64,000 bases of DNA from Eledone cirrhosa (taxonomy: Eukaryota), in the NCBI GenBank assembly GCA_964016885.1, contig OZ024744.1:48298001-48362000 (forward strand), written 5' to 3'. The first letter of the stretch is position 1. Each line of letters starts with the position of its first letter. Shown here piece by piece: positions 26,867 through 59,189 of this stretch. The position numbers and the translations under genes were made by a program. The notes beneath the pieces are model-generated. The model ran no database searches. It was not told the DNA's origin and saw only the letters and a list, made by a program, of their open reading frames with translations.

Positions 26867-29371
26867 TATATATATGTGTGTGTGTGTGTGTGTAGCGTGA
26901 GAGAGAGAGGGGGGTTAGTTCGAAAACAAATTAAGAAACCATACTTGAGACCATATGTTTTACTTGAAGGATTTTTCAAATCGTGTATGGTTATAGTGAG
27001 AACGGAAGTATTCATGAGCTGGCAGGATTCTGCATAGCAGATGTCAGTAGTTGAATGGCCAGGGAGACAACTTGAGTATGACCATTGTGAGGGGGGAGAC
27101 AACTCGAGTATGACAATTGTAGGGGGAGCAACTTTTGAAGAACGCTCCCTTGTGATAGTTTAGTCTGAGCTAAACTTCTGGTTATACTAGGTCTTTCAGT
27201 TATGCAAGAGAAACTTTATATATAATTCTTTGTTTTTCTGTCTGTCTGTTTGTCTCTCTTCCCCTTATGCATTCTGAAATGGCTTGACGAAATCAAATCA
27301 AATTTTACAATGTAATAGTATTAGAACCCGGAATTAACAACATAATTTTTATTTTCCTTTGGATCAATATAACATTTTATCTAAAATATTCTACTTTAGA
27401 CAACTATAAGTAAATAGATATTTTATAACATGACGACGATGATAACAATGTCACATTTTATTACAAATGTGTATGTATCTGTAAGGGTGTGTGTGTGTGC
27501 GTTTGTTATATTCATTAGGCCTTAGTAAGTTACACATACATCTTCATGTAAATACATAATCTGATACACAGAGAATTAAACACTCACATACATCTTCATA
27601 TACATATGTGTGTGAGTGTATGTGTGCGTGAGTATACATACATTTGTGTGATGACTGACATAATGCAACATTGTATGAATATATGTCTGTGTTTTTTTAT
27701 GTTTGAGTGTGTGTATCTGCGTCTGTTCGTGGGTGAAACTCTGTGTGTGTGTTTGTATGAATGTATGTCAGTGTGTGTTTTTTAAAAGTGTATGTTTGTG
27801 TGAGTGTATGTGTGTCTATTTGTTTATATTTATATTCTCATTCCGTTGAATTAGCATTTGCTTACATTTGGTTAATTTGCACTGTATACAAAAATAATAA
27901 TTAATAGGTATTTCTTTTGGATGTTGATACTTATTTGTTTACAATATTGAAAAAAAAATGTCTTTATTCTAAAACCACCTACAGCTGTTCCATTTGAATT
28001 TAAGAGGCTTCAGTTTCCAGTCAAAGTTTTGTTATTTCAATTAACAAATCTCAGGGTCAATCCCTAAAGGTAGTTGGACTTGATCTCTCTACTACATGTT
28101 TCTTCCATGGTCAACTCTATGTTGGTTGTTCACGAGTTGGAAACAGCAACAATTTATTCATTTGGACACCAACAAGAAGTTACACAATGAATATTGTTTA
28201 CCCTGAGGTGCTTCAAGATTGACAGATTTTCATTTCTAAATTCTGTTATCATTACAATTTTGATAGTTTTATTAATAAAATATAGATATTTTGAAATAAT
28301 TATGAGAAAATATATATATCTCCATATTTGGAACAGCAGTAATCCAGACAGTGGTGGGTCCTCAGCTAGTATATATTTATTCTTTCCTTAATTGATTTAG
28401 TCGATCATATTGATATCATACATTTTTTCCAGGGCTGATATCAACCTCTTTTTCTTGAAATGTTAAATGATGTGGTATATACACAGACATAAACATAAAC
28501 ACTGACATGGACACACACACACTCTCACATGTATACAAGATGGATTTCGGCAGTTTCCATCTTTTAAATTCTTCTCACCAGGCAACCTTTAGCTTATAGA
28601 AGGCACTTGCCTAACTGGTTGAGAAGCAAGCTCATGAACTACAAAGCCATATATATATATACATATATATATATACACACATGCACATACACACTCATAT
28701 ATATATATACATTTCTCCAAATTTCCAATCCCACCCTGCATGTCCTTTCAATCTTTCTAATTTCTCATTCTTTCTTTTGATGAAGGACTAGCGTCTGAAA
28801 CGTTATGACCCTCTTCCTGCTATTTTAAGCATTACGCTAATATATTCCTTCCATATACTGTACTGATTGTGTTGTTATTTCTGTTTACCTTTTACGTGCA
28901 TATATACATCAACGCTTATGTGGACCTCTCAAATTCGTTGGATTTTCAAATTGGATTTTCACTCTGAAACTGGGTACATACTTGGAGTTTATCCAAACTT
29001 CCACCAGGAAATCTTTTCATATCACTGATATTTTCTTTGCTTCTTGCATTATTTAAATATATCACGACTCTCTATAACTTTTCCTCAACTATAATCTTCT
29101 CACTTCCACCTTTTTCTTCTCACCTGTCTACTTTTCTCTCCCACCATAGTACCTTCACCATGCCCAATCTCAAATTTTTTCTCTGAACATTTTTTAAATT
29201 CCACCCTGCCTGTCCCTTCAATCTTTCTAATCTCTCATTCTTTCTTCTGATGAAGGTCTAGCGTCCAAAACGTTAAGATCTTCCTACTATTTCAAGCTTT
29301 AACATTCCTTCCATATACTGTACCAATTATGTTGTTATTTCTGTTTACCTTTTACACATACACACACACAC

Positions 29372-29990
29372 ATATCATCATCATCATCATTTTACGTCTG
29401 CTTTTCCCTGTGTGCAAGGTTGGGACGGGGCCTATTCAGCACGGCATCTCTCCATTCATCACGGTCCTTCGTTATTTACTCTGTGAGCTTCAGCAATCTG
29501 AGATCTGCTCTCACCACCTCCGCCCATGTTTTTCGTGGTCTTCCTCAACTGCATCTTCCTTCCACAGGGATTTCCTGCACTTCTTTACACAGCGCTCATC
29601 CTCCATGCGCATCACATGTCCATGACAACACAATCTTCTCTCCCACACACTACAGCCCATCCCTCTTATACACAGTTTCTCTTTCAACTCGTCTATGCTT
29701 GGTCCTTCATGCACATTCACATTGCACATCCAATGGAACATGATTACTTCATTTCTCTCCAGTTGTCGAATATCCTCTGTAGTTGCTGCCCATGTCTCTC
29801 TACCATGCAGCATCGCGCATCTCACATAGGCATCATATAACCGGCCTTTCGTATGCATCTCCCTAAACTTCTTCCTACCTGTCCTTATTCTGGATACTAT
29901 GGCCTTGGAACACCCTCCTGCATTACTAATCTGATCACCTATGTATTGGAAGCCATCAATCACCTCTATAGGTCCTACCCGCATTTTAAA
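29372..29990 (-). mobile_element. RTE LINE 3' fragment
   Basis: ORF 29511-29984 (SRIRTG.KKFRE, MLHG.ETW). Confidence 0.85.
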
Positions 29991-43037: not shown

Positions 43038-43091
43038 TATATTCCAATTCTACCCCACCCGTCCCTTCAATCTATCTAATTTTTCATTCTT

Positions 43092-43126
43092 TTTTCTGAT
43101 GAGGACTAGTGTCCGAAACGTTAAGA
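43092..43126 (+). ncRNA. Minimal hammerhead (PLE-type family D)
   Basis: TTTT-CTGATGA-GGAC-TAGT-GTCC-GAA-ACGT-T-AAGA; degenerate copies at ~25665, ~28773 and ~29243. Confidence 0.78.
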
Positions 43127-43474
43127 TCCTCTTCTTGCTATTTCAAGCGTTAACCTAATATATTCCTTCCATATACTGTACCGATTGTGTTATATTTGTT
43201 AATTTTTATATCATCATCATCATCATCATCATCATCGTTTAACGTCCATATTCCACGCTCGCATGGGTTTGGACGGGAGTTTTCCCACTTGAGGCAAGAG
43301 TGGTTGTCTTGCTCGCATAGGACTGTCTGGCGGGTTTTCTATGGCTGGATGCCCTTCCTAACACCAACCACATTTACATATATATACATATATATATCAT
43401 CATCATTATCATCATTTAACATCTATTTTCCACGCTATACACACATATATATATAATGAATCAACAGTAACTCC

Positions 43475-47724: not shown

Positions 47725-47889
47725 TTGAGATCGAGATCATGCACTATTTAAACTTCGACTTACAAATATTATGTATGTGTGTGTGTGTGTGTGTATGTCA
47801 ACATGAATGGACCTGTTATTTTTATCTAAAGACCTTTTTTCCAATTCCATCCCGCCCGTCCCCTCAATCTAGCTTATTTTTCATTCATA

Positions 47890-47923
47890 CTTCTGACGAA
47901 GGACTAGCGTCCGAAACGTTAAG
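47890..47923 (+). ncRNA. Minimal hammerhead (PLE-type family D)
   Basis: CTT-CTGACGA-A-GGAC-TAGC-GTCC-GAA-ACGT-T-AAG. Confidence 0.78.
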
Positions 47924-48009
47924 ACCCTCTTCTTGCTATATCAAGCGTTCACCTAATATATCCCTTCCATATACTGTACCGATTGTGTTGTTATTTCTGT
48001 TTACCTTTT

Positions 48010-48069
<60 letters not shown>

Positions 48070-50082: not shown

Positions 50083-51132
50083 CTTCTTCTTCTTCTTCTT
50101 CCCCCCCCCCGTTAGACTTGTGCGAAATTCCTTCCTTTCTCACATTTCAACCAGGTTTGATGGTCTTTTGTCTCTTGTTCACGATTTCACCGAGTTTATA
50201 TTCATAGAGATCTGGGACTTGTCTATTTCTTCTCACTTTCCGTTGCTTAAACCATTTTGTTTGTTACCCTAACGTCCCCTTTATTTACGTGTCCCAACGA
50301 CTTTTTTTAGCCGTTGTTCGCACCAACCTGAGGCATATGGCCCTTAAAGCGATGAAATGCCTGGGACGGTTGGAGGGTCACTGATGAAGGACTCACTTTT
50401 TCATATGCACCACCATTTGCAACGGGCAGCCATCATTATTATCATATTTACACATAATTTTTCTTCTGCTGCCATCCGTCCGTTTCGTCCTTTGTACCTT
50501 TACCCTTTCTCGTTCTTTGTACCTTTTACCCTTTCTAGCAGTCTCTCTCTCTGTTAGCCTCCTTCTCAACTTTCACTCACTCATTCTCTGTCACTACCTC
50601 TCCTCCTCCTCCTTCAAGTTTGACCTGTGTGAAATTCTTTTCTCGCGCGTCCTGGTCAAGCTGGTATGGAATTTTTTTTCTCTCGCTCTTTCGTCTGCGA
50701 CTTCACAAAACTTATGTTTACCGAATTCGTAGACCAGACCCCTTCTTCTTCTTCTTCTTCTTCTTCTTCTTCTTCTTCTTCTTCTTCTCCCCCCCCCCCC
50801 CCGTTAGACTTGTGCGAAATTCCTTCCTTTCTCACATTTCAACCAGGTTTGATGGTCTTTTGTCTCTTGTTCACGATTTCACCGAGTTTATATTCATAGA
50901 GATCTGGGACTTGTCTATTTCTTCTCACTTTCCGTTGCTTAAACCATTTTGTTTGTTACCCTAACGTCCCCTTTATTTACGTGTCCCAACGACTTTTTTT
51001 AGCCGTTGTTCGCACCAACCTGAGGCATATGGCCCTTAAAGCGATGAAATGCCTGGGACGGTTGGAGGGTCACTGATGAAGGACTCACTTTTTCATATGC
51101 ACCACCATTTGCAACGGGCAGCCATCATTATT

Positions 51133-51139
<7 letters not shown>
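50083..51139. repeat. 692-bp-period partial tandem (~365-bp direct repeats around a unique core) in (TA)n
   Basis: 50111-50447 is repeated essentially identically at 50803-51139, each preceded by (CTT)n and a C-tract. Confidence 0.9.
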
Positions 51140-51185
<46 letters not shown>

Positions 51186-51217
51186 AGATCAAAAGATGGT
51201 TAAAGGAGTTCCATATA

Positions 51218-51284
51218 TTTTATTATGCGCATTTCAAAAACAAACATCATCAAGCAATAATATTTGTGTTTTCATCAGATAAAA
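51218..51284 (-). ncRNA. Hammerhead ribozyme
   Basis: TTTTAT-CTGATGA-AAACACAAATAT..ATGTTTGTTTTT-GAA-ATGCGCAT-A-ATAAAA. Confidence 0.78.
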
Positions 51285-51789
51285 CAGGAGAACATGATAT
51301 GAAGGCTAAAAAACACTTGTTGATAGTGCAGTTTTAAATCAACATATGAAAAGTCGTTTTAGATTGATGTGTGATATTGGGAAAAATATTTTATTTAGAG
51401 AGGGGGGGGGGGTGAAAAGGGAAGGAGATGAGAGGGAGAGGTGGGTGATAGAGAGAAAGAGATAGTTTTTATAACTGAGAGGAGATATATTTTTTACATA
51501 GAGGGGTTGAAAACCGTTGGAAGATACTGTATAAATTAAAAATTTTGAAAATTAACGAAGGGAGGATATGTGCGAGGAAAAAATATTTTATTTAGGGAGG
51601 GGGGGGGGTGAAAAAAAGGGGGAGGAGATGAGAGTGAAGGTGGAGAGGGAGAGATGGGTGATAGAGAGAAAGAGATAGTTTTTATAACTGAGAAAAAGAT
51701 ATATTGTTTTAATATAGAGAGGTTGGGAACCGTTGGAAAATAATGTATAAATTAAAGGAATTTGAAAATTAACGAAGGGAAATTATGTA

Positions 51790-53100
51790 TGAAGATAGAG
51801 GTGGCGAACACTTTCATAGCGTCCGTCATCTACTACCGCTTGACTGTCGTGCCTTGTCCCCGTGAACACCTCGCCAAGATGGAACGCATGCTCTTCCAGT
51901 TTCTGTGGAAGAAGCAGGCTCCGCTGGTGAGGAGATCCGTCTGCTGTCAGCACCCTTCCAACGGAGGGCTGGGAATGCCGTGGCTGATGATGCGCAAACA
52001 TGCGCTGAGGCTGCGGCATCTCCAGGTATTCCTCACCGACCCCCAACCGGTGTGGGCACCGTTTGTGAGACAGGCTTTCCCACAGCTCGTCTCGCTAACG
52101 GAGCTGCAGTCCTGGGTGAAGAAAAGACCGAAAACGATGGGCGCCTGGCACATTGAATGCGCTCAGGCGCTCACAGTCCTCTGGCAAGCGGGCGCAGCAA
52201 TTAGTGGATACTCCACTTCGACATTCTATAGAGGGATTGTACGTTACAAGGGCGACGACGTGCTCGGAGAGACTCTGGGCGTCGAAGACGATGAGCTCAC
52301 CAGTATGTTTGGTAGGACTTTCCGCCCGGGACCTATGGACAACTTCCAGAGGTCCCTGGCCTGGCAGTGCTACCGAGGAGCTCTACCGGTTCGTGACAAG
52401 GTCTACAGGCACGGACGCCCTGGCAGGGATCCTTCCAAGAGGACGTGTCCAAGATGTGCGCAGGACATTGAAACAGTTCTGCACGCAATTGTACACTGCC
52501 CGGGCGTAAGCGACCTGTGGAACTATGCAGAACAACTGCTGTCGCGTATGGGACAAATACAGTTGACTGCCGAATCCATAGTAAGGATCAAACCGCCAGA
52601 CTCTTTCAAAAACGAAAGAGAGGCGGTTTTCCTCTGTACGGTGGCTATGGTGAAAGAAGTTATATGGTGGACGAGGTTGAGAGGACTGAGGACAGATGCC
52701 TTTCTCTCCGGACAACAATTGATTCCATTCTTTAAGTATCACTTTAGAAGGAGAATCAGGGTGGAGAGAGAGGCACTGCACCCCAGTAAATTTACTGAAA
52801 GGTGGGTGAATGAAGCGAAAATGGCCCGAGTGATTGGGCCTTCTCTGTTTATAAGCCTGTAGGTTGAGGAAGAGAGCAAAAGGAAGAAAGGAGCACTTGC
52901 ACAACACGCTCCTTGAGTTGAGGGTTGTTCTATCGACGGGGTATTAAACAACCCATTTGTGGCGCCTCCCCCCTATTGGGGATTTCGATTGTTGAAATTG
53001 TTTGTTTTTATATTTTTTTACACGACTGTATGTAAAATCCCCGGCATGTCTTTGTATTGTCCCCTTTCTTGTTGCGCCCTTGTGGCTAATAAAGAAATCA
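51790..53100 (+). mobile_element. 5'-truncated L1/Tx1-clade LINE (intact 3' ORF portion to 52862)
   Basis: F.FLWK..PLVRR...P..GGLGMP and a zf-RVT-like motif (ALPVRD..CPRC...ETVLHAIVHC). The 3' UTR ends gtggctaataaagaaat; the same 3' end occurs at ~22265-22320 (-). Confidence 0.88.
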
Positions 53101-53986
53101 ATATTCTTAACTCTGAAGCCGAGAATCATTCGGTTTCCCAAATAGAATATTAGTCTATGACTTCATTTATACCATAAACGTGGTTTTGTCTGCGTGTAAT
53201 TGTTCTCTCGATCCACATAACGACGTATTATCTTCGCTTTTTTCCCGTTCATTGCCAGGGAACATCTTCACGAACTAAAGTATCATCTTCCTGTTTTCCT
53301 TCGGTTACTACGTTTTTCGAAATATTTACTTCTGCGTTCACAGATTGTTTGTTATAGTTTCAGAAGATCCCGTTAAGGCTGAAAGCAGCGATTCTTTGCT
53401 TAAACTTTAATCTGTTATTTTATATATATTTATTTATTTATTATAAAGTGAAATGAAAGGAGGCCAAATATGTTGAATTTCCTTAATTCTTTTTATTACT
53501 GTAAACACTATGCACATTTCAGTGACCAGGTTGCGTAAGAACCTGGTGACCTCATCTACATGTACTCCGTTCCCGCACCAACAACGCGATTCAACATCAA
53601 AGATAGATGACTTACATAACGTTGATTGCTTTTCCTACATCATGGTTAACTATACGGAATGACCATTTCTATCCAGTGGTGAACCACCAAATTTAAATGA
53701 ATATGTGGTTAGAAAAAGCTATCTCACTTACTGCTTTTCATAGGCGCCGCTAAATCCCATGGCTGGTTTCTCCTCTTCCACGTGCGTCCAACTCATTTAC
53801 AACGCGAGCTGCCAAAACTCGCGCCCACACCGTTCCCGGTCACCACTAGAGAGAGGCCGATCTGCTGGCCCTTCCGGTCGAGCACCCTTCCGGCCAAGCA
53901 CCCTTCCGGTCAAGCACTCTTCCGGTCGAGCAATCCCCAGCTTCCGGCCACCGCACGCCACACCATTCCCATACGCCCCCCTGATC

Positions 53987-54730
53987 TCAAGGATCAATTT
54001 CCCCCTCGTCCTTCTGCATATGAAAGTCTGCTGTCCAGGTTGGTGGTTTGCGACTTCTTTGCGATCTCCGCAGTGTTGGGGCGGCACTTTGGGTTTCCTC
54101 TTCCTCGGAGTCCGTTGACACAGTGATTCTACGGACATCCAGGACATGATGTGGTACTCCGTCCACGGACACATTGTTCTGGGAATTTACGGCCGTCACC
54201 GTTCCCCTTCCCCATTGAAATGTGCAACGTGCATCTGGGGGCTTAACCCAGAATTCTTCGCCCACCTGCACGAATGCATTCACTCTCCCCACTGGCCGTT
54301 GTGGTGGCGTGCACGGGTGCCGCCACTCGTATCTGAATACTGCTCTGTGTGGCACCGATTCCTCGACCTGTCCCACCCGAGGGGACATGTTGTACCAGAA
54401 CACTGCCTCCATTGGTGAGATATGGCCCCGCTCCGCCATTGCCTTGATCGTCTGGTGGTGTCGCTCCACAATTTCATTCCCGCTCGGCCTGTGCGCTGCT
54501 CTGAAGAAACGGACCACCTTCCATCCATCGAGCATCTCCCTCAGCGCCTCCGAGCGGAACGCTGCGCTGTTGTCCATCAGCAGTTCGTCCACAGGGCCCC
54601 GCTCCAAGAACACCTCTCTCAACGCCCGCATGATTTCCTCGGCCGTTCCAGTCTTCATCTCCCTTCATATCACCATCCGTCCCGGTCCACAGTCGACCAT
54701 CGAGAGGTACGTTCCCTGTCGGTAGTGCGT
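53987..54730 (-). CDS. Integrase core (frameshifted from the upstream pol)
   Basis: DVTHY, GPVDELLMDN, P.GN..VER.H.TIK. Confidence 0.85.
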
Positions 54731-55674
54731 TACATCCACCGCCAATCGCGATCCACCGGGAGGCTTCCTGTTTCGTGCACACCCGGGGCGGGATCAATGG
54801 ACTGACATCGGACGCAGCCTCTAACCACCCTTTGAACACTGTGTCTGTTAACGTCCGAGTCAATTCTCCTGGCTAGGAACAGAGTCCTATCCACTCCCAT
54901 GTGGTGCATGTCATGCAACCCTTTCAAGTCCGACTCGGTCAGCCGACACACGGCAGCTATTTCATCTACCTCCTCCGGCGCTTCCATCCAGGCTTTCTTC
55001 ACCCTGGTTAAGACGTCCGCCCTATTTTTCTCTGAAGGCACGAAAACTACGCTCTGCCTCAGGTCGAACTCGGTGGCCAGCTCTCCTAAAGTTCCCAGGC
55101 GGCACTTTATCAGCATCTCCGCCGCCCCTCTCGTTCGCACTCTCTTCTCACTGGTGAGCACTGATCTCACCCATCCGAGTACAGAAGCCGAGTCAGTGCG
55201 TATCTCGATGGTTCGCAGTCCCCACCTCAGGGCGAGGTTCACCTCTCTCAACACTACGTCCAGTTCGGCCACATTGATGTGGTTGCAGTCGTCCTTCTTC
55301 CTAAGCCAGGCTCCATCCTCGACCTCAACACCTCCAATCTCCAACGTGACACCCAGCGCTATGCTGCTGGCATCGCACCATACGGTCCCGCTCTGCGATT
55401 TGGGAACATACCAACGTCTCCGCACTGGGTCGTCGGCCTTCACCATCCTCACGATCTCCTGCACCATGGCCACCGTCCTCTCTCCCACTCTGTCACTCCA
55501 AGTCACCCCTCCCGCTCGTCTCTTGACATAGCTGCATACCGCCCGGAGCCACCCAGCAATCGGGTAGTGACCCACCAACTTTCCACACACCGAGAAAAGC
55601 TCCCGCCTACTCATACTTGGGCCCAGTTCTGGAACTTCATTTCCAGTACCACTCAACAACCCATCGCTGCCCAT
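54730..55674 (-). CDS. Pol fragment: RT connection, RNase H, integrase HHCC
   Basis: WCDAS, HINVAEL, RTDS, NRAD; H..HH.G...C..C. Confidence 0.85.
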   Translation of the reverse strand: MGSDGLLSGTGNEVPELGPSMSRRELFSVCGKLVGHYPIAGWLRAVCSYVKRRAGGVTWSDRVGERTVAMVQEIVRMVKADDPVRRRWYVPKSQSGTVWCDASSIALGVTLEIGGVEVEDGAWLRKKDDCNHINVAELDVVLREVNLALRWGLRTIEIRTDSASVLGWVRSVLTSEKRVRTRGAAEMLIKCRLGTLGELATEFDLRQSVVFVPSEKNRADVLTRVKKAWMEAPEEVDEIAAVCRLTESDLKGLHDMHHMGVDRTLFLARRIDSDVNRHSVQRVVRGCVRCQSIDPAPGVHETGSLPVDRDWRWM

Positions 55675-56828
55675 CGAACACAGCCTTGAAGTTTTTGTCC
55701 TGCACAGTGTAAGCGGGGTATTTCTCCTCGTGGGCCTTCTGGTTCTCCTGTCGCGTACTCACAGCGCGATGCAGCGCCGCCAAACGACACACCAACGTTG
55801 TTCACTGTGACGCCTCTTAGACGGCCAATTGCGTCCATGCCCATAACCACGCCGATCCCATCCACTACGTTGTCAACTACGATGGCAGAAAGCCTTATTT
55901 TCCTTCCCCGTACCGCTATCTCCACCTCGCTGCGACCTCGGCATTCAATTTTCCTGCCGTCGACTGCCCTTACGATGCTCTTCCCTCTCCACCTCTGCGC
56001 CAACCCCGCGGTCACCAGTGTCGTCGTACAGCCTGTGTCCACGAGGGCTCTCTGTGGCTTTCCCCTCACGAAGACTTCCATCACGGGCAGCGCCTCTACT
56101 CGTAAGGGGCAATTACCGGCGCAGTAGTTCCCCTTGGATCGTTTCCCTGGTCGCTTACACCGGTAGCATATTATTTCCGGCCTTGACTCTCTACAGTCTC
56201 TAGCCATGTGCGGGCCCTGGCACCTAAAACAGTGACCTCTAAACGTTCGCGGGCGACCGCATGCCGTGGTTGCCTCTCTTTCACCATTTCGCTGCCAGCT
56301 GTCTTGAGCCTCTGTAGTTTCTATCGGCGCGACACTCTTCTTGGCATCTTCTGCTATGATCCGGGCTTGTTCCGCCAGTGAACACATTTCCATTTCTTTG
56401 TAACCCGGGACTTGCTGCAGTTTCACCGTTATGTCGTCTGGAAATCCATTTATGAACGCCAACCGCACCGTGCGTTCGCATTCCACCTGATATCCAGCCA
56501 ACATGGCCAATCGCCGTATTTCCGCTGCGAAAATGTCAACGCGTTCACCGTTCCATCTAATTCTTGCCAGCTTAGCAAAAGCGGCTAACGGCCCCTCTGC
56601 GAACGCTTCCATCATGCGCCTCTCAATCTTTTGCGCATCTCTTTGGCTGTGTTCATCCAACCCAAGGAAGACTACCAACGCATCCCCCTCGAGGTACAGT
56701 GCCATGAGGCCAGCCACATCTTCTATCTTCTGTAAGCTTGCGACCAGCCGGATTTTTCGCAGCCAAGCGACATCGCCTTCACCGATAAATGCCTTAATCG
56801 CTTCGCTCGTTCGTAGTCTCGTCGTCAT
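55653..56828 (-). CDS. Gag (CCHC zinc knuckle) + aspartic protease
   Basis: CFRCQGPHMARDC, CYRC; ALVDTG..VVMGMD. Confidence 0.88.
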   Translation of the reverse strand: MTTRLRTSEAIKAFIGEGDVAWLRKIRLVASLQKIEDVAGLMALYLEGDALVVFLGLDEHSQRDAQKIERRMMEAFAEGPLAAFAKLARIRWNGERVDIFAAEIRRLAMLAGYQVECERTVRLAFINGFPDDITVKLQQVPGYKEMEMCSLAEQARIIAEDAKKSVAPIETTEAQDSWQRNGEREATTACGRPRTFRGHCFRCQGPHMARDCRESRPEIICYRCKRPGKRSKGNYCAGNCPLRVEALPVMEVFVRGKPQRALVDTGCTTTLVTAGLAQRWRGKSIVRAVDGRKIECRGRSEVEIAVRGRKIRLSAIVVDNVVDGIGVVMGMDAIGRLRGVTVNNVGVSFGGAASRCEYATGEPEGPRGEIPRLHCAGQKLQGCVRWAAMGC

Positions 56829-57228
56829 ATCCTAATTTGTCTTGCGGTACGTGATAAAAAAAAAAAAACAACAGACTCCTCTCTGTTTTTCCAGAAGCTT
56901 TTTTTTTTTTTTTTTTTTTTTTTTCAATCTGATCTCAGTTTCCAGTGTCGAAATAGCTTGTGGTTAGAAAAAGCTTTCTCACTTACCGCTTTTCATAGGC
57001 GCCGCTAAATCCCGTTGCTGGTTTCTCCTCTTCCACGTGCGTCCAACTCATTAACACCGGGAGCTGCCAAAACTCGCGTCCACACCGTTCCTGGTCACCA
57101 CTAGAGAGAGGCCGATCTGCTGGCCCTTTCGGTCGAGCACCCTTCCGGCCAAGCACCCTTCCGGTCAAGCACTCTTCCAGTCGAGCACTCCCCAGCTTCC
57201 AACCACCGCACGCCACACCATACCCACA

Positions 57229-57271
<43 letters not shown>

Positions 57272-58223: not shown

Positions 58224-59189
58224 TATTGTTATATTTGGGGAGGGTCATATTTGCGTAATATTGCCAGAATTAATAACAGAACACACTCACTGTTTGGTTG
58301 GTTTTCGCTTCTCGCTGTCTTTTATATATATATATCTGCGATCTAACTTACTCGGTCCTCAATGTTGCCATTGACTGACCGGCGGTCAAAAATAATACAG
58401 ATACAATATAGACAAACACATATATATATAGTTTACATAATTTACATAAATCTTTCGTTGCACATCTGCAACATCGTCAGTGGTGTTATATTCATTGTTC
58501 CTCCTGTTGTGTTGTATGTCTACGCCATTTTTTTTGTTCAGTCTGTCTATATATTTATTTATTTATTTGCTTGTTTGTTTATCTTATTTTATTTTGTCTT
58601 CTTTGCGCATGCGTTTGCGTGTGTGTATAGTGTTATGTGTGATGTGTGACTAGTGTGTATAGTGTTGTGTCTGCTGGGTGACTAGTGTGTGTTTATGTGC
58701 TTGTGTATGTATTTATTTATCTTATTTTATTTTATTTTATTTACTTATTTATTTATACTTCTCTTAGGTCAGTGTTGTTTGTTTGGGTGTTGTTGTTGTT
58801 CCACTCATTCTTTCTGTTTAGCTTTGGTCTTCTAATTTCTATTTCACTGGCCTCTCTGATTTGCCTATCTGCTGGGTCATTCCTATGTTTAGATATTATT
58901 CTAATTTCTATGTTGTCTATGTTACCGTCATGTTGTTGTCTAGCATGTTCGTATAGTACTGACCCGTTTTTTCGTCCTTTTAGTTCCCCCCAGTGTTGGT
59001 CTATCCTTTCACCTATGCTACGAGCTGTCTCACCTATGTATGTTGTTGTCGTGTTTCTGCAAGTACCCTCTGTACATTCTGTTATTAATTCTGGCAATAT
59101 TACGCAAATATGACCCTCCCCAAATATAACAATATCTGTTTCGACACACGATTTCATATAAAAAACCTCGCAAAACTAATTCATCGCCG

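What the first reader, a model, noticed from the sequence alone, without database searches (positions are those of the whole stretch)
50291..50379. Nested double-pseudoknot RNA with HDV-like topology but no obvious J4/2 catalytic C
The minus strand reads CCAACC(P1)-GTCCC(P2)-AGGCAT(P3)-loop TTCA[TCGC]TTTA[AGGGCC]AT-ATGCCT(P3')-CA-GGTTGG(P1')-T-GCGA(P1.1')-hairpin AACGGCT/AGTCGTT(P4)-GGGAC(P2'). The helix order matches the HDV/delta fold, but P3 is longer, P1.1 has 4 bp, there is an extra GACCCT/AGGGCC pairing, and there is essentially no J4/2. Five to six interleaved helices in 90 nt look non-random. A second copy is at 50983-51071. It is a candidate new self-cleaving or structural RNA in a mobile element; the functional strand is uncertain.
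Basis: inference. Interest (0 to 1): 0.8.

Follow-up and report, generated by a model that had tools for sequence, protein, structure and literature searches.

The report
Rewired hammerhead ribozyme in animal retroelement
Read on the strand opposite to the one first proposed, this 100-base motif holds every catalytic piece of a hammerhead ribozyme in a scrambled order and recurs at over ten thousand places in a small tandem repeat element, so it is likely a self-cutting RNA (cutting untested) and likely the kind that Naiad-type jumping genes were reported to lack.

Summary
On the plus strand (50291-50392; identical copy 50983-51084) lie all three hammerhead blocks in the order cleavage site, GAAA, CUGAUGA. 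This is the non-circular type-SGC permutation of Eckert et al. 2023, who found none in genomes of known organisms. The genome holds at least 10,685 sites (control 0) in many subfamilies. Stems I and III and three outer helices covary (17 of 33 pairs). The cleavage triplet keeps the NUH rule in 219 of 219 copies. Stem II is split by a four-way junction. The host is a 692-bp ORF-less tandem unit that inserts into (TA)n with Penelope-like hallmarks, i.e. a retrozyme-like element. By eye, published Naiad retroelement tails (octopus, squid, coral, clam shrimp) carry the same architecture, and nematode Naiads carry type CSG. This would explain their 'missing' hammerheads. Cleavage, expression and the mobilising enzyme are untested.

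The parts
50083..51136 (+). Whole insertion: about 1.5 head-to-tail units of a 692-bp ORF-less, pyrimidine-rich repeat, 5'-truncated, lying between two (TA)n runs
   Evidence: (D20, spacing 692)
50291..50392 (+). Type-SGC hammerhead motif, copy 1 (Pa, hairpin, Pb, PK, k-turn, stem III, stem I, core)
50983..51084 (+). Type-SGC hammerhead motif, copy 2, identical to copy 1
50332..50343 (+). Block S: stem III strand GGCAU (U16.1 = 50336), H17 = A50337, predicted cut between 50337 and 50338, then stem I strand UGGCCC
   Evidence: coordinates; U16.1 in 219/219 and H17 never G in 219 copies
50349..50361 (+). Block G: GCGA (pairs with 50318-50321), position 11.1 = U50353, G12 A13 A14 = 50354-50356, stem III strand AUGCC from A15.1 = 50357
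50375..50392 (+). Block C: stem I strand GGGUCA, C3-A9 CUGAUGA = 50381-50387, 10.1 = A50388, then GGAC pairing with 50291-50294 (Pa)
   Evidence: stem I 95.8% paired with 5 of 6 pairs changed on both sides
50323..50373 (+). PK helix CCAACC (50323-50328) / GGUUGG (50368-50373); topological equivalent of the stem I-II interaction helix (equivalence inferred)
   Evidence: 90.8% paired, 5 of 6 pairs changed on both sides
50329..50367 (+). Predicted kink-turn joining stem III to PK: strand U-GA-GG (50329-50333) and bulged strand CC-UGG-GA-C (50360-50367)
   Evidence: the four G/A positions kept in 214-218 of 219 copies while the 3-nt bulge varies; consensus definition from PMC4382518
50291..50321 (+). 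5' domain of the four-way junction that splits stem II: Pa strand GUCC (50291-50294), hairpin (50296-50315), Pb strand UCGC (50318-50321)
50338..51029 (+). Predicted 692-nt monomer RNA released between the two cut sites (44% GC, 69% U+C)
   Evidence: release and circularisation are inferred

Best explanation
The plus strand carries all hammerhead core elements in the non-circular order site-GAAA-CUGAUGA (type SGC), held by covarying helices, and is predicted to cut itself after A50337 and A51029, likely releasing a 692-nt monomer of a Penelope-type non-autonomous retroelement. Shown: core sequence, helices, covariation, the tandem, 5'-truncated, (TA)n-targeted insertion pattern. Inferred architecture: stem I links through 4-5 nt to the stem II strand; stem II is one pair (10.1-11.1) plus a four-way junction (Pb, hairpin, Pa); stem III bends through a kink-turn into the PK helix, which ties the far ends of stems I and II together. 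Inferred life cycle: read-through transcripts of arrays are cut into monomers. The two ends of a monomer stay paired by about 26 bp and rebuild the ribozyme, which favours ligation to a circle. A Penelope-like RT/GIY-YIG protein primes at a nick in (TA)n, on the AU-rich stretch 20-85 nt behind the core, and copies round the circle, giving partial tandems with a fixed 3' end. The motif appears to descend from the 3' end of Naiad elements. Odds: SGC hammerhead fold 0.93; cleaves in vitro at the predicted site 0.8; circular-RNA route 0.6.
For: Core and spacing. Abundance against reversed-pattern controls: 14,765 vs 28 (variable gaps can count one site several times), 427 vs 0, 104 vs 0, 10,685 vs 0 (fixed length). 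Covariation on 20 representatives: 91.7% of 659 cells paired, 17 of 33 pairs changed on both sides, 0 of 500 shuffles as high, slid controls 30-47% paired. The single 10.1-11.1 pair occurs as A-U, U-A, G-U and G-C in 13 of 20. Of 219 copies U16.1 is invariant and H17 is A 175, C 41, U 3, G 0. An S block with stems III and I lies upstream in 100 of 117 own-genome pattern hits, against 2 of 119 metagenome and 0 of 117 viral hits. The full parser passes 0 of 332 background CUGANGA sites. Family N changes Pb, PK, III and I together. Element behaviour: 38 of 57 family-A copies end in a TA/CA run and 19 run into the next unit; ends cluster 19-23 and 56-86 nt behind C3; a 9-unit array (L096) and inverted pairs occur. 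These match the Naiad/PLE hallmarks in PMC8557442. Naiad_Obim and Naiad_Ovul tails show the same helices, k-turn and hairpin loop (by eye).
Against: No cleavage or expression data. Stem II is only one direct pair, and it is unpaired in 7 of 20 representatives; no tested hammerhead that I read of has this junction. The GCGA, GAAA and CUGANGA positions were fixed by my search patterns, so their invariance is circular. The 20 aligned sequences were my pick from 124 distinct segments and are related by descent, which inflates the shuffle test. The G-U versus A-C count does not tell the strands apart (18 vs 21). 5' ends of copies show only a modest, confounded excess at the cut site. The parser passes only 48 of 77, 38 of 100 and 6 of 29 copies in three samples (many are truncated or decayed). 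No intact Naiad ORF was found in this genome and no ribozyme lay next to 7 RT remnants, so the enzyme that moves the young copies is unidentified. The Naiad link rests on reading published consensus tails by eye.
Confidence: 0.82

Rival explanations
1. HDV/delta-like nested double pseudoknot acting on the minus strand.
For: Helix order on the minus strand matches HDV in this one sequence. The minus strand folds somewhat better than shuffles (z = -1.86 vs -0.51). The G-U test does not exclude it.
Against: P2 is broken in homologues. No J4/2 or catalytic C; P1 begins with C. No Rfam HDV-family match. The conserved unpaired residues spell the hammerhead core and a k-turn on the plus strand. The fixed 3' end and variable 5' truncation also point to the plus strand.
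Confidence: 0.02
2. Hammerhead-derived but no longer catalytic: the fold is kept as a recognition signal for a Penelope-like RT, and tandems arise by template jumping on uncut RNA.
For: Arrays read straight through the cut site. No sharp pile-up of 5' ends at the cut site. Stem II is minimal. PMC8557442 notes that Naiads thrive without canonical hammerheads.
Against: H17 switches between A, C and U but is never G in 219 copies, and U16.1 is invariant. These are chemistry rules of cleavage, kept across subfamilies whose stems have been rewritten. Read-through arrays are also what a circular template gives.
Confidence: 0.1
3. Active ribozyme, but the element spreads as a linear cut RNA or as DNA tandem duplication, not through a circle, and is moved by a non-Naiad PLE such as Neptune.
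For: Naiads here are stop-ridden remnants, while family A copies are 99-100% identical. Other PLE RT and GIY-YIG pieces also sit in (TA)n beside these copies.
Against: Arrays of up to 9 units cross cut sites without a seam, which a linear monomer cannot template in one pass. Adjacent PLE pieces are separated from the element by TA runs and look like independent insertions. The 'moved by another PLE' part is compatible with the best explanation and stays open.
Confidence: 0.25

Closest known systems
Type-SGC hammerhead ribozymes (HRIMA-1 and variants; Eckert et al. 2023, PMC10085705)
   Same: Block order S-G-C; full core; short linker from stem I to stem II (typically 3 nt there, 4-5 here); a helix that ties the other sides of stems I and II.
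   Different: Reported only from metatranscriptomes, none in genomes of known organisms. There stem II is a plain helix between blocks G and C. Here it is one pair plus a four-way junction, the chain starts upstream of block S, and stem III joins the I-II helix through a predicted k-turn. The paper assumes blocks cannot be interrupted and leaves open how stem III reaches the I-II helix.
Metazoan non-LTR retrozymes (Cervera and de la Pena 2020, PMC7229834; bioRxiv 10.64898/2026.07.22.740005)
   Same: ORF-less tandem repeats with one ribozyme per unit, low GC, thousands of copies, tied to Penelope-like elements.
   Different: Those carry type I hammerheads and were found with type I descriptors, which cannot see this motif. 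Units here are about 500-800 bp against about 170-400 nt in the 2020 paper; the preprint reports 51-972 bp.
Naiad Penelope-like elements (Craig et al. 2021, PMC8557442)
   Same: (TA)n targets, 5' truncation, partial tandems, inverted 5' copies, 30-40 bp tail (here about 40 nt between the two end clusters). The Obim/Ovul tails carry the same ribozyme architecture (by eye).
   Different: No ORF in this element. The paper states that Naiads lack canonical hammerheads, marks 8 as 'HHR_half_core', and calls cephalopod Naiads old remnants, whereas family A here is young.
HDV/delta-like ribozymes of retrotransposons
   Same: Superficial helix order on the minus strand.
   Different: P2, J4/2 with its catalytic C and the G-start of P1 are absent or unconserved (features recalled; P2 tested).

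Membership tests
Hammerhead ribozyme, type SGC | CUGANGA flanked by stem I and stem II strands | tested here: met
   50381-50387; stem I 95.8% paired with 5 of 6 pairs covarying. The motif itself was part of the search patterns.
Hammerhead ribozyme, type SGC | GAAA block with A15.1-U16.1 pair and stem III | tested here: met
   A-U in 20 of 20; stem III has 2 pairs changed on both sides; U16.1 219/219
Hammerhead ribozyme, type SGC | NUH cleavage triplet (H not G) directly followed by stem I | tested here: met
   H17 = A 175, C 41, U 3, G 0 of 219; spacing to GCGA is 11 nt in 98 of 100
Hammerhead ribozyme, type SGC | 5'-3' block order S, G, C | tested here: met
   50332-50343, 50349-50361, 50375-50392
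Hammerhead ribozyme, type SGC | Continuous stem II between blocks G and C | tested here: not met
   Only the 10.1-11.1 pair is direct (13 of 20 paired); the rest comes from a separate 5' strand through a four-way junction. Hence a variant, not a plain member.
Hammerhead ribozyme, type SGC | Helix joining the far sides of stems I and II | tested here: met
   PK helix, 5 of 6 pairs covarying; its equivalence to the published interaction helix is inferred from topology
Hammerhead ribozyme, type SGC | Site-specific self-cleavage | not testable with these tools
   The indirect test (5' ends of genomic copies) was inconclusive
HDV-like ribozyme (minus strand) | Conserved P2 | tested here: not met
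   60% paired; 60 of 500 shuffles as high
HDV-like ribozyme (minus strand) | J4/2 with catalytic C; purine start of P1 (features recalled) | tested here: not met
   P4 abuts the proposed P2'; P1 starts with C; no Rfam match
Kink-turn | 3-nt bulge followed by tandem G.A and A.G pairs next to a canonical stem | tested here: met
   G/A at 2n, 1n, 1b, 2b in 215, 214, 214, 218 of 219; bulge variable; definition in PMC4382518. Absent from family N. Kinking itself is untested.
Non-LTR retrozyme | ORF-less tandem units each with a ribozyme | tested here: met
Non-LTR retrozyme | Type I hammerhead | tested here: not met
   The ribozyme is type SGC
Non-LTR retrozyme | Expressed as linear and circular monomer RNA | not testable with these tools
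   No RNA holder listed; only contigs were available
Naiad PLE (autonomous) | N-terminal GIY-YIG plus RT ORF | tested here: not met
   No ORF in the unit; only decayed RT remnants elsewhere
Naiad PLE (autonomous) | (TA)n targeting, partial tandems, inversions, 30-40 bp tail | tested here: met
   these traits are shared with other PLE clades
Naiad PLE (autonomous) | 3' end homologous to a Naiad tail | tested here: inconclusive
   Same architecture and shared loop words by eye; three own-genome relics resemble the Naiad version; no alignment was run against the published consensus

The most novel reading that the evidence does not exclude
Non-circularly permuted hammerheads are the standard ribozyme of a large part of the Naiad clade and its non-autonomous offspring: SGC with a four-way junction (with or without a k-turn) in cephalopods, corals, clam shrimp and a ctenophore, plain SGC in a spider, CSG in nematodes. 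Forms thought to be rare curiosities of viroid-like RNAs would then be among the most abundant ribozymes in invertebrate genomes, hammerhead wiring was rearranged several times inside one retroelement clade, and this genome makes a class of circular RNAs invisible to type I-III searches.
Probability: 0.65. Interest if true: 0.9.

Novelty: new variant of a known kind. Interest (0 to 1): 0.82.

Why it matters
It places a ribozyme wiring reported only from environmental RNA into an animal genome at over ten thousand sites, with natural compensatory variants. It gives a directly testable answer to a stated puzzle: Naiads were reported to lack canonical hammerheads, and this was used to argue that hammerheads may merely parasitise Penelope-like elements (PMC8557442). 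If Naiads keep permuted hammerheads, self-cleavage looks like a general need of these elements. The predicted k-turn offers an answer to the geometric question Eckert et al. left open, and the split stem II breaks their three-block assumption. Standard type I-III descriptors and Rfam miss the motif, so other genomes likely hide more.

Tried and rejected
Rfam: nothing on the motif; the wider scan gave only microsatellite noise. Single-sequence helix null: not significant. G-U/A-C strand test: neutral, 18 vs 21. One search had mis-set brackets and is discarded (redone). One search timed out. The first parser missed the window copy through a greedy choice and was replaced. Cleavage footprint: 7 of the 22 5' ends between -30 and +50 fall at 0 to +4 of the cut site, but part of that sample was biased by the search pattern, and the site's AUAU matches the (TA)n target; 100 G/H copies showed no sharp peak: inconclusive. 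Within-array against between-array differences (family A mean 2.0, 15 pairs, 8 from one array, vs 11.4) are confounded by truncated copies and are not used. Expression: no RNA holder listed; six guessed-RNA runs laid 0 contigs, and two runs of unknown kind hold the family as contigs only. Autonomous partner: Naiad EN pattern 0 matches; RT pattern 13 matches, 9 translated, 7 are stop-ridden Naiad-like RT remnants, none with the ribozyme within about 6.5 kb. Neptune-like RT pieces near some copies are separated by TA runs. Considered and dropped by inspection: glmS, twister, pistol, IGR-IRES and frameshift readings, and canonical type II (GAAA and the post-core strand have no direct partners in that order).

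Full report
Observation. In one sequence the number of helices is only borderline unusual: 67 of 1000 and 85 of 1000 shuffles reach the score. Rfam finds nothing on either strand. The case therefore had to be made with homologues.

The other strand. On the plus strand the motif reads: GUCC (50291-94), a hairpin (50296-315), UCGC (50318-21), CCAACC (50323-28), U-GA, GGCAU (50332-36), A50337, UGGCCC (50338-43), a short linker, GCGA (50349-52), U50353, GAA-AUGCC (50354-61), UGG-GA-C, GGUUGG (50368-73), GGGUCA (50375-80), CUGAUGA (50381-87), A50388, GGAC (50389-92). These are the three hammerhead blocks, in the order cleavage site, GAAA, CUGAUGA. Eckert et al. 2023 (PMC10085705; I read parts 2-6 of 8 of the text, and searched the supplement by terms) name this non-circular order type SGC and showed that such RNAs cleave. 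They report that no such RNA was found in genomes of known organisms, apart from one GCS candidate. 'Octopus' does not occur in their supplement text.

Copies and covariation. The window's genome (3.0 Gb) holds the motif in bulk. A BLAST-type search gave 1002 candidates for this family and 1602 for a second. Patterns gave 14,765 matches against 28 for the reversed control (variable gaps can count a site more than once), 427 vs 0, 104 vs 0 and, at fixed length, 10,685 vs 0. I aligned 20 representatives picked from 124 distinct segments. For the SGC model, 91.7% of 659 cells pair, 17 of 33 pairs change on both sides, 0 of 500 shuffles reach this, and slid controls give 30-47%. Stem I and the PK helix each have 5 of 6 pairs changed on both sides, the hairpin 3, stem III 2, Pa 1. 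Pb is near-invariant in that set but is rewritten, with PK, III and I, in the older family N. The lone 10.1-11.1 pair appears as A-U, U-A, G-U and G-C in 13 of 20 and is unpaired in 7. The sequences are related by descent, so the shuffle figure overstates significance. The GCGA, GAAA and CUGANGA words were fixed by my patterns. U16.1 and H17 were fixed only in the pattern: across 219 copies U16.1 is invariant and H17 is A 175, C 41, U 3, G 0, the hammerhead NUH rule. An upstream S block with both stems occurs in 100 of 117 own-genome hits, 2 of 119 metagenome hits and 0 of 117 viral hits of the same pattern. A full parser passes 0 of 332 background core sites, and 48 of 77, 38 of 100 and 6 of 29 copies in three genome samples that include truncated and decayed ones. 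A G-U versus A-C count does not favour either strand (18 vs 21).

New architecture. Two features differ from the published SGC form. First, stem II is interrupted: after 10.1 the chain pairs back to the 5' GUCC, while a separate 5' strand (UCGC) supplies the rest of stem II, closing a four-way junction with the hairpin. Second, the loop between stem III and PK fits the standard kink-turn, a 3-nt bulge followed by G.A and A.G pairs (PMC4382518, abstract and passages). The four G/A positions are kept in 214-218 of 219 copies while the bulge varies, and the window has 3b = C, which that paper links to folding in metal ions. Family N lacks the k-turn and has a U-rich bulge instead. By topology (inference), PK is the helix that ties stems I and II, and the whole is the published SGC form closed at its ends and reopened inside stem II.

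The element. The insertion spans 50083-51136 between (TA)n runs: about 1.5 units of a 692-bp, ORF-less, pyrimidine-rich repeat. Of 57 family-A copies, 38 end in a TA/CA run and 19 run into the next unit; ends cluster 19-23 nt (6) and 56-86 nt (32) behind C3. 5' ends are scattered, and arrays of up to 9 units and head-to-head inversions occur. Craig et al. 2021 (PMC8557442; passages, section 7 and supplement) list the same hallmarks for Naiads and other Penelope-like elements, including a 30-40 bp tail. ORF-less tandem units with one ribozyme each are non-LTR retrozymes (PMC7229834, passages; bioRxiv 10.64898/2026.07.22.740005, passages and part 2 of 5), but those carry type I hammerheads.

Link to Naiads. 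Craig et al. state that Naiads lack canonical hammerheads and mark 8 as 'HHR_half_core', with the second half of the core far away on either side. I read by eye the last 330-520 nt of about 43 Naiad consensus sequences in their File S5; no tool was run on them. Naiad_Obim and Naiad_Ovul show the architecture found here, with Pa, hairpin (same loop word), Pb, PK, k-turn, stem III, AUA-type site and stem I. The squid Esco, three Acropora Naiads and EuTe show SGC order with most of the same outer helices, and Bfor more weakly. The spider Smim looks like plain SGC. Six nematode Naiads (Nbra-1, -2, -3, Hcon, Hpol, Asuum) show type CSG with a long I-II helix; Eckert et al. knew two CSG sequences. 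That makes about 15 of 43. Five of the 8 half-core entries parse this way; Parc, Dst-3 and Dst-4 did not. In the own genome a few relics resemble the Naiad version. No intact Naiad was found: the EN pattern gave 0 matches, and 7 of 9 translated RT-motif hits are stop-ridden remnants with no ribozyme nearby. Since family A copies are 99-100% alike, the enzyme that moves them is an open point; another (TA)n-targeting PLE acting in trans is plausible. That the host is an octopus-like animal is an inference from this likeness.

Mechanism. Shown: core, helices, insertion pattern. Inferred: transcripts are cut after A50337 and A51029. The 692-nt monomer's ends stay paired through Pa, Pb, PK, III and I, which favours ligation into a circle. 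A PLE RT primes at a (TA)n nick on the AU-rich stretch behind the core and copies round the circle, giving fixed 3' ends, ragged 5' ends and seamless arrays. A genomic footprint of cutting was sought and is inconclusive. RNA data gave no usable test.

Novelty. Searches of the paper library for 'non-circular permutation + hammerhead', 'type-SGC + hammerhead', 'hammerhead + Penelope + octopus', 'Naiad + hammerhead + permut', 'hammerhead + non-circular + retrotransposon + Penelope', 'retrozyme + circRNA + hammerhead + mollusc' and 'Naiad + Penelope-like + ribozyme' found no report of SGC or CSG hammerheads in animal genomes or in Naiads. PMC13725137 (passages) only cites Eckert et al. The library lacks most subscription papers. 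Unchecked notes of this scan mention rearranged hammerheads and twisters in Naiad-type elements of other genomes; they are leads, not support.

Verdict. New variant of a known kind: a genome-encoded type-SGC hammerhead with a split stem II and a predicted k-turn, in a retrozyme-like Penelope-type element likely derived from Naiad tails. Confidence 0.82, interest 0.82. The HDV reading is rejected.

Noticed in passing
window 51210-51290 (-): A separate minimal type I hammerhead (CUGAUGA, long stem II, GAAA, palindromic GCGC stem III loop) in the remnant of another Penelope-like element right beside the array; read by eye, stems I and II seen in the fold.
   Followed up: partly
window 51756-52862 (+): 368-aa open frame, 3' part of an L1/Tx1-type LINE with a zf-RVT match just under the Pfam cut-off; 5'-truncated, unrelated to the motif.
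   Followed up: partly
window about 53700-57230 (-): LTR retrotransposon-like element with direct terminal repeats, gag-protease, DUF7047 and integrase-like frames, no RT seen.
   Followed up: partly
window 58753-59175 (-): GIY-YIG-like C-terminal endonuclease frame of a Penelope-like element (by eye; no Pfam match).
   Followed up: no
window 28722-28909, 29192-29375, 43041-43191, 47838-48025: A further repeat family with a canonical-order hammerhead core (CUGAUGA, short stem II, GAAAC) ending in (TA)n (D13/D16/D17).
   Followed up: no
L381-L410 (family N): Older (about 75-85% alike) family with the same SGC wiring but a 7-bp Pb, long Pa and no k-turn; 104 pattern matches.
   Followed up: partly
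PMC8557442 File S5, nematode Naiad tails: Six nematode Naiads end in clean type-CSG hammerheads with a long helix joining stems I and II; read by eye.
   Followed up: partly
window 50365-50367 and 50390-50392: The k-turn GA-Y and the Pa strand GA-Y share their last base in step with position 50291 (17 of 20 paired), so a small alternative pairing of the 5' GUC is possible; unexplained.
   Followed up: no
L098 and L099 (G000:C1 34.43 Mb and 35.46 Mb): Near-identical 8-kb blocks 1 Mb apart, each with an inverted pair of the motif: a segmental duplication or an assembly duplicate.
   Followed up: no
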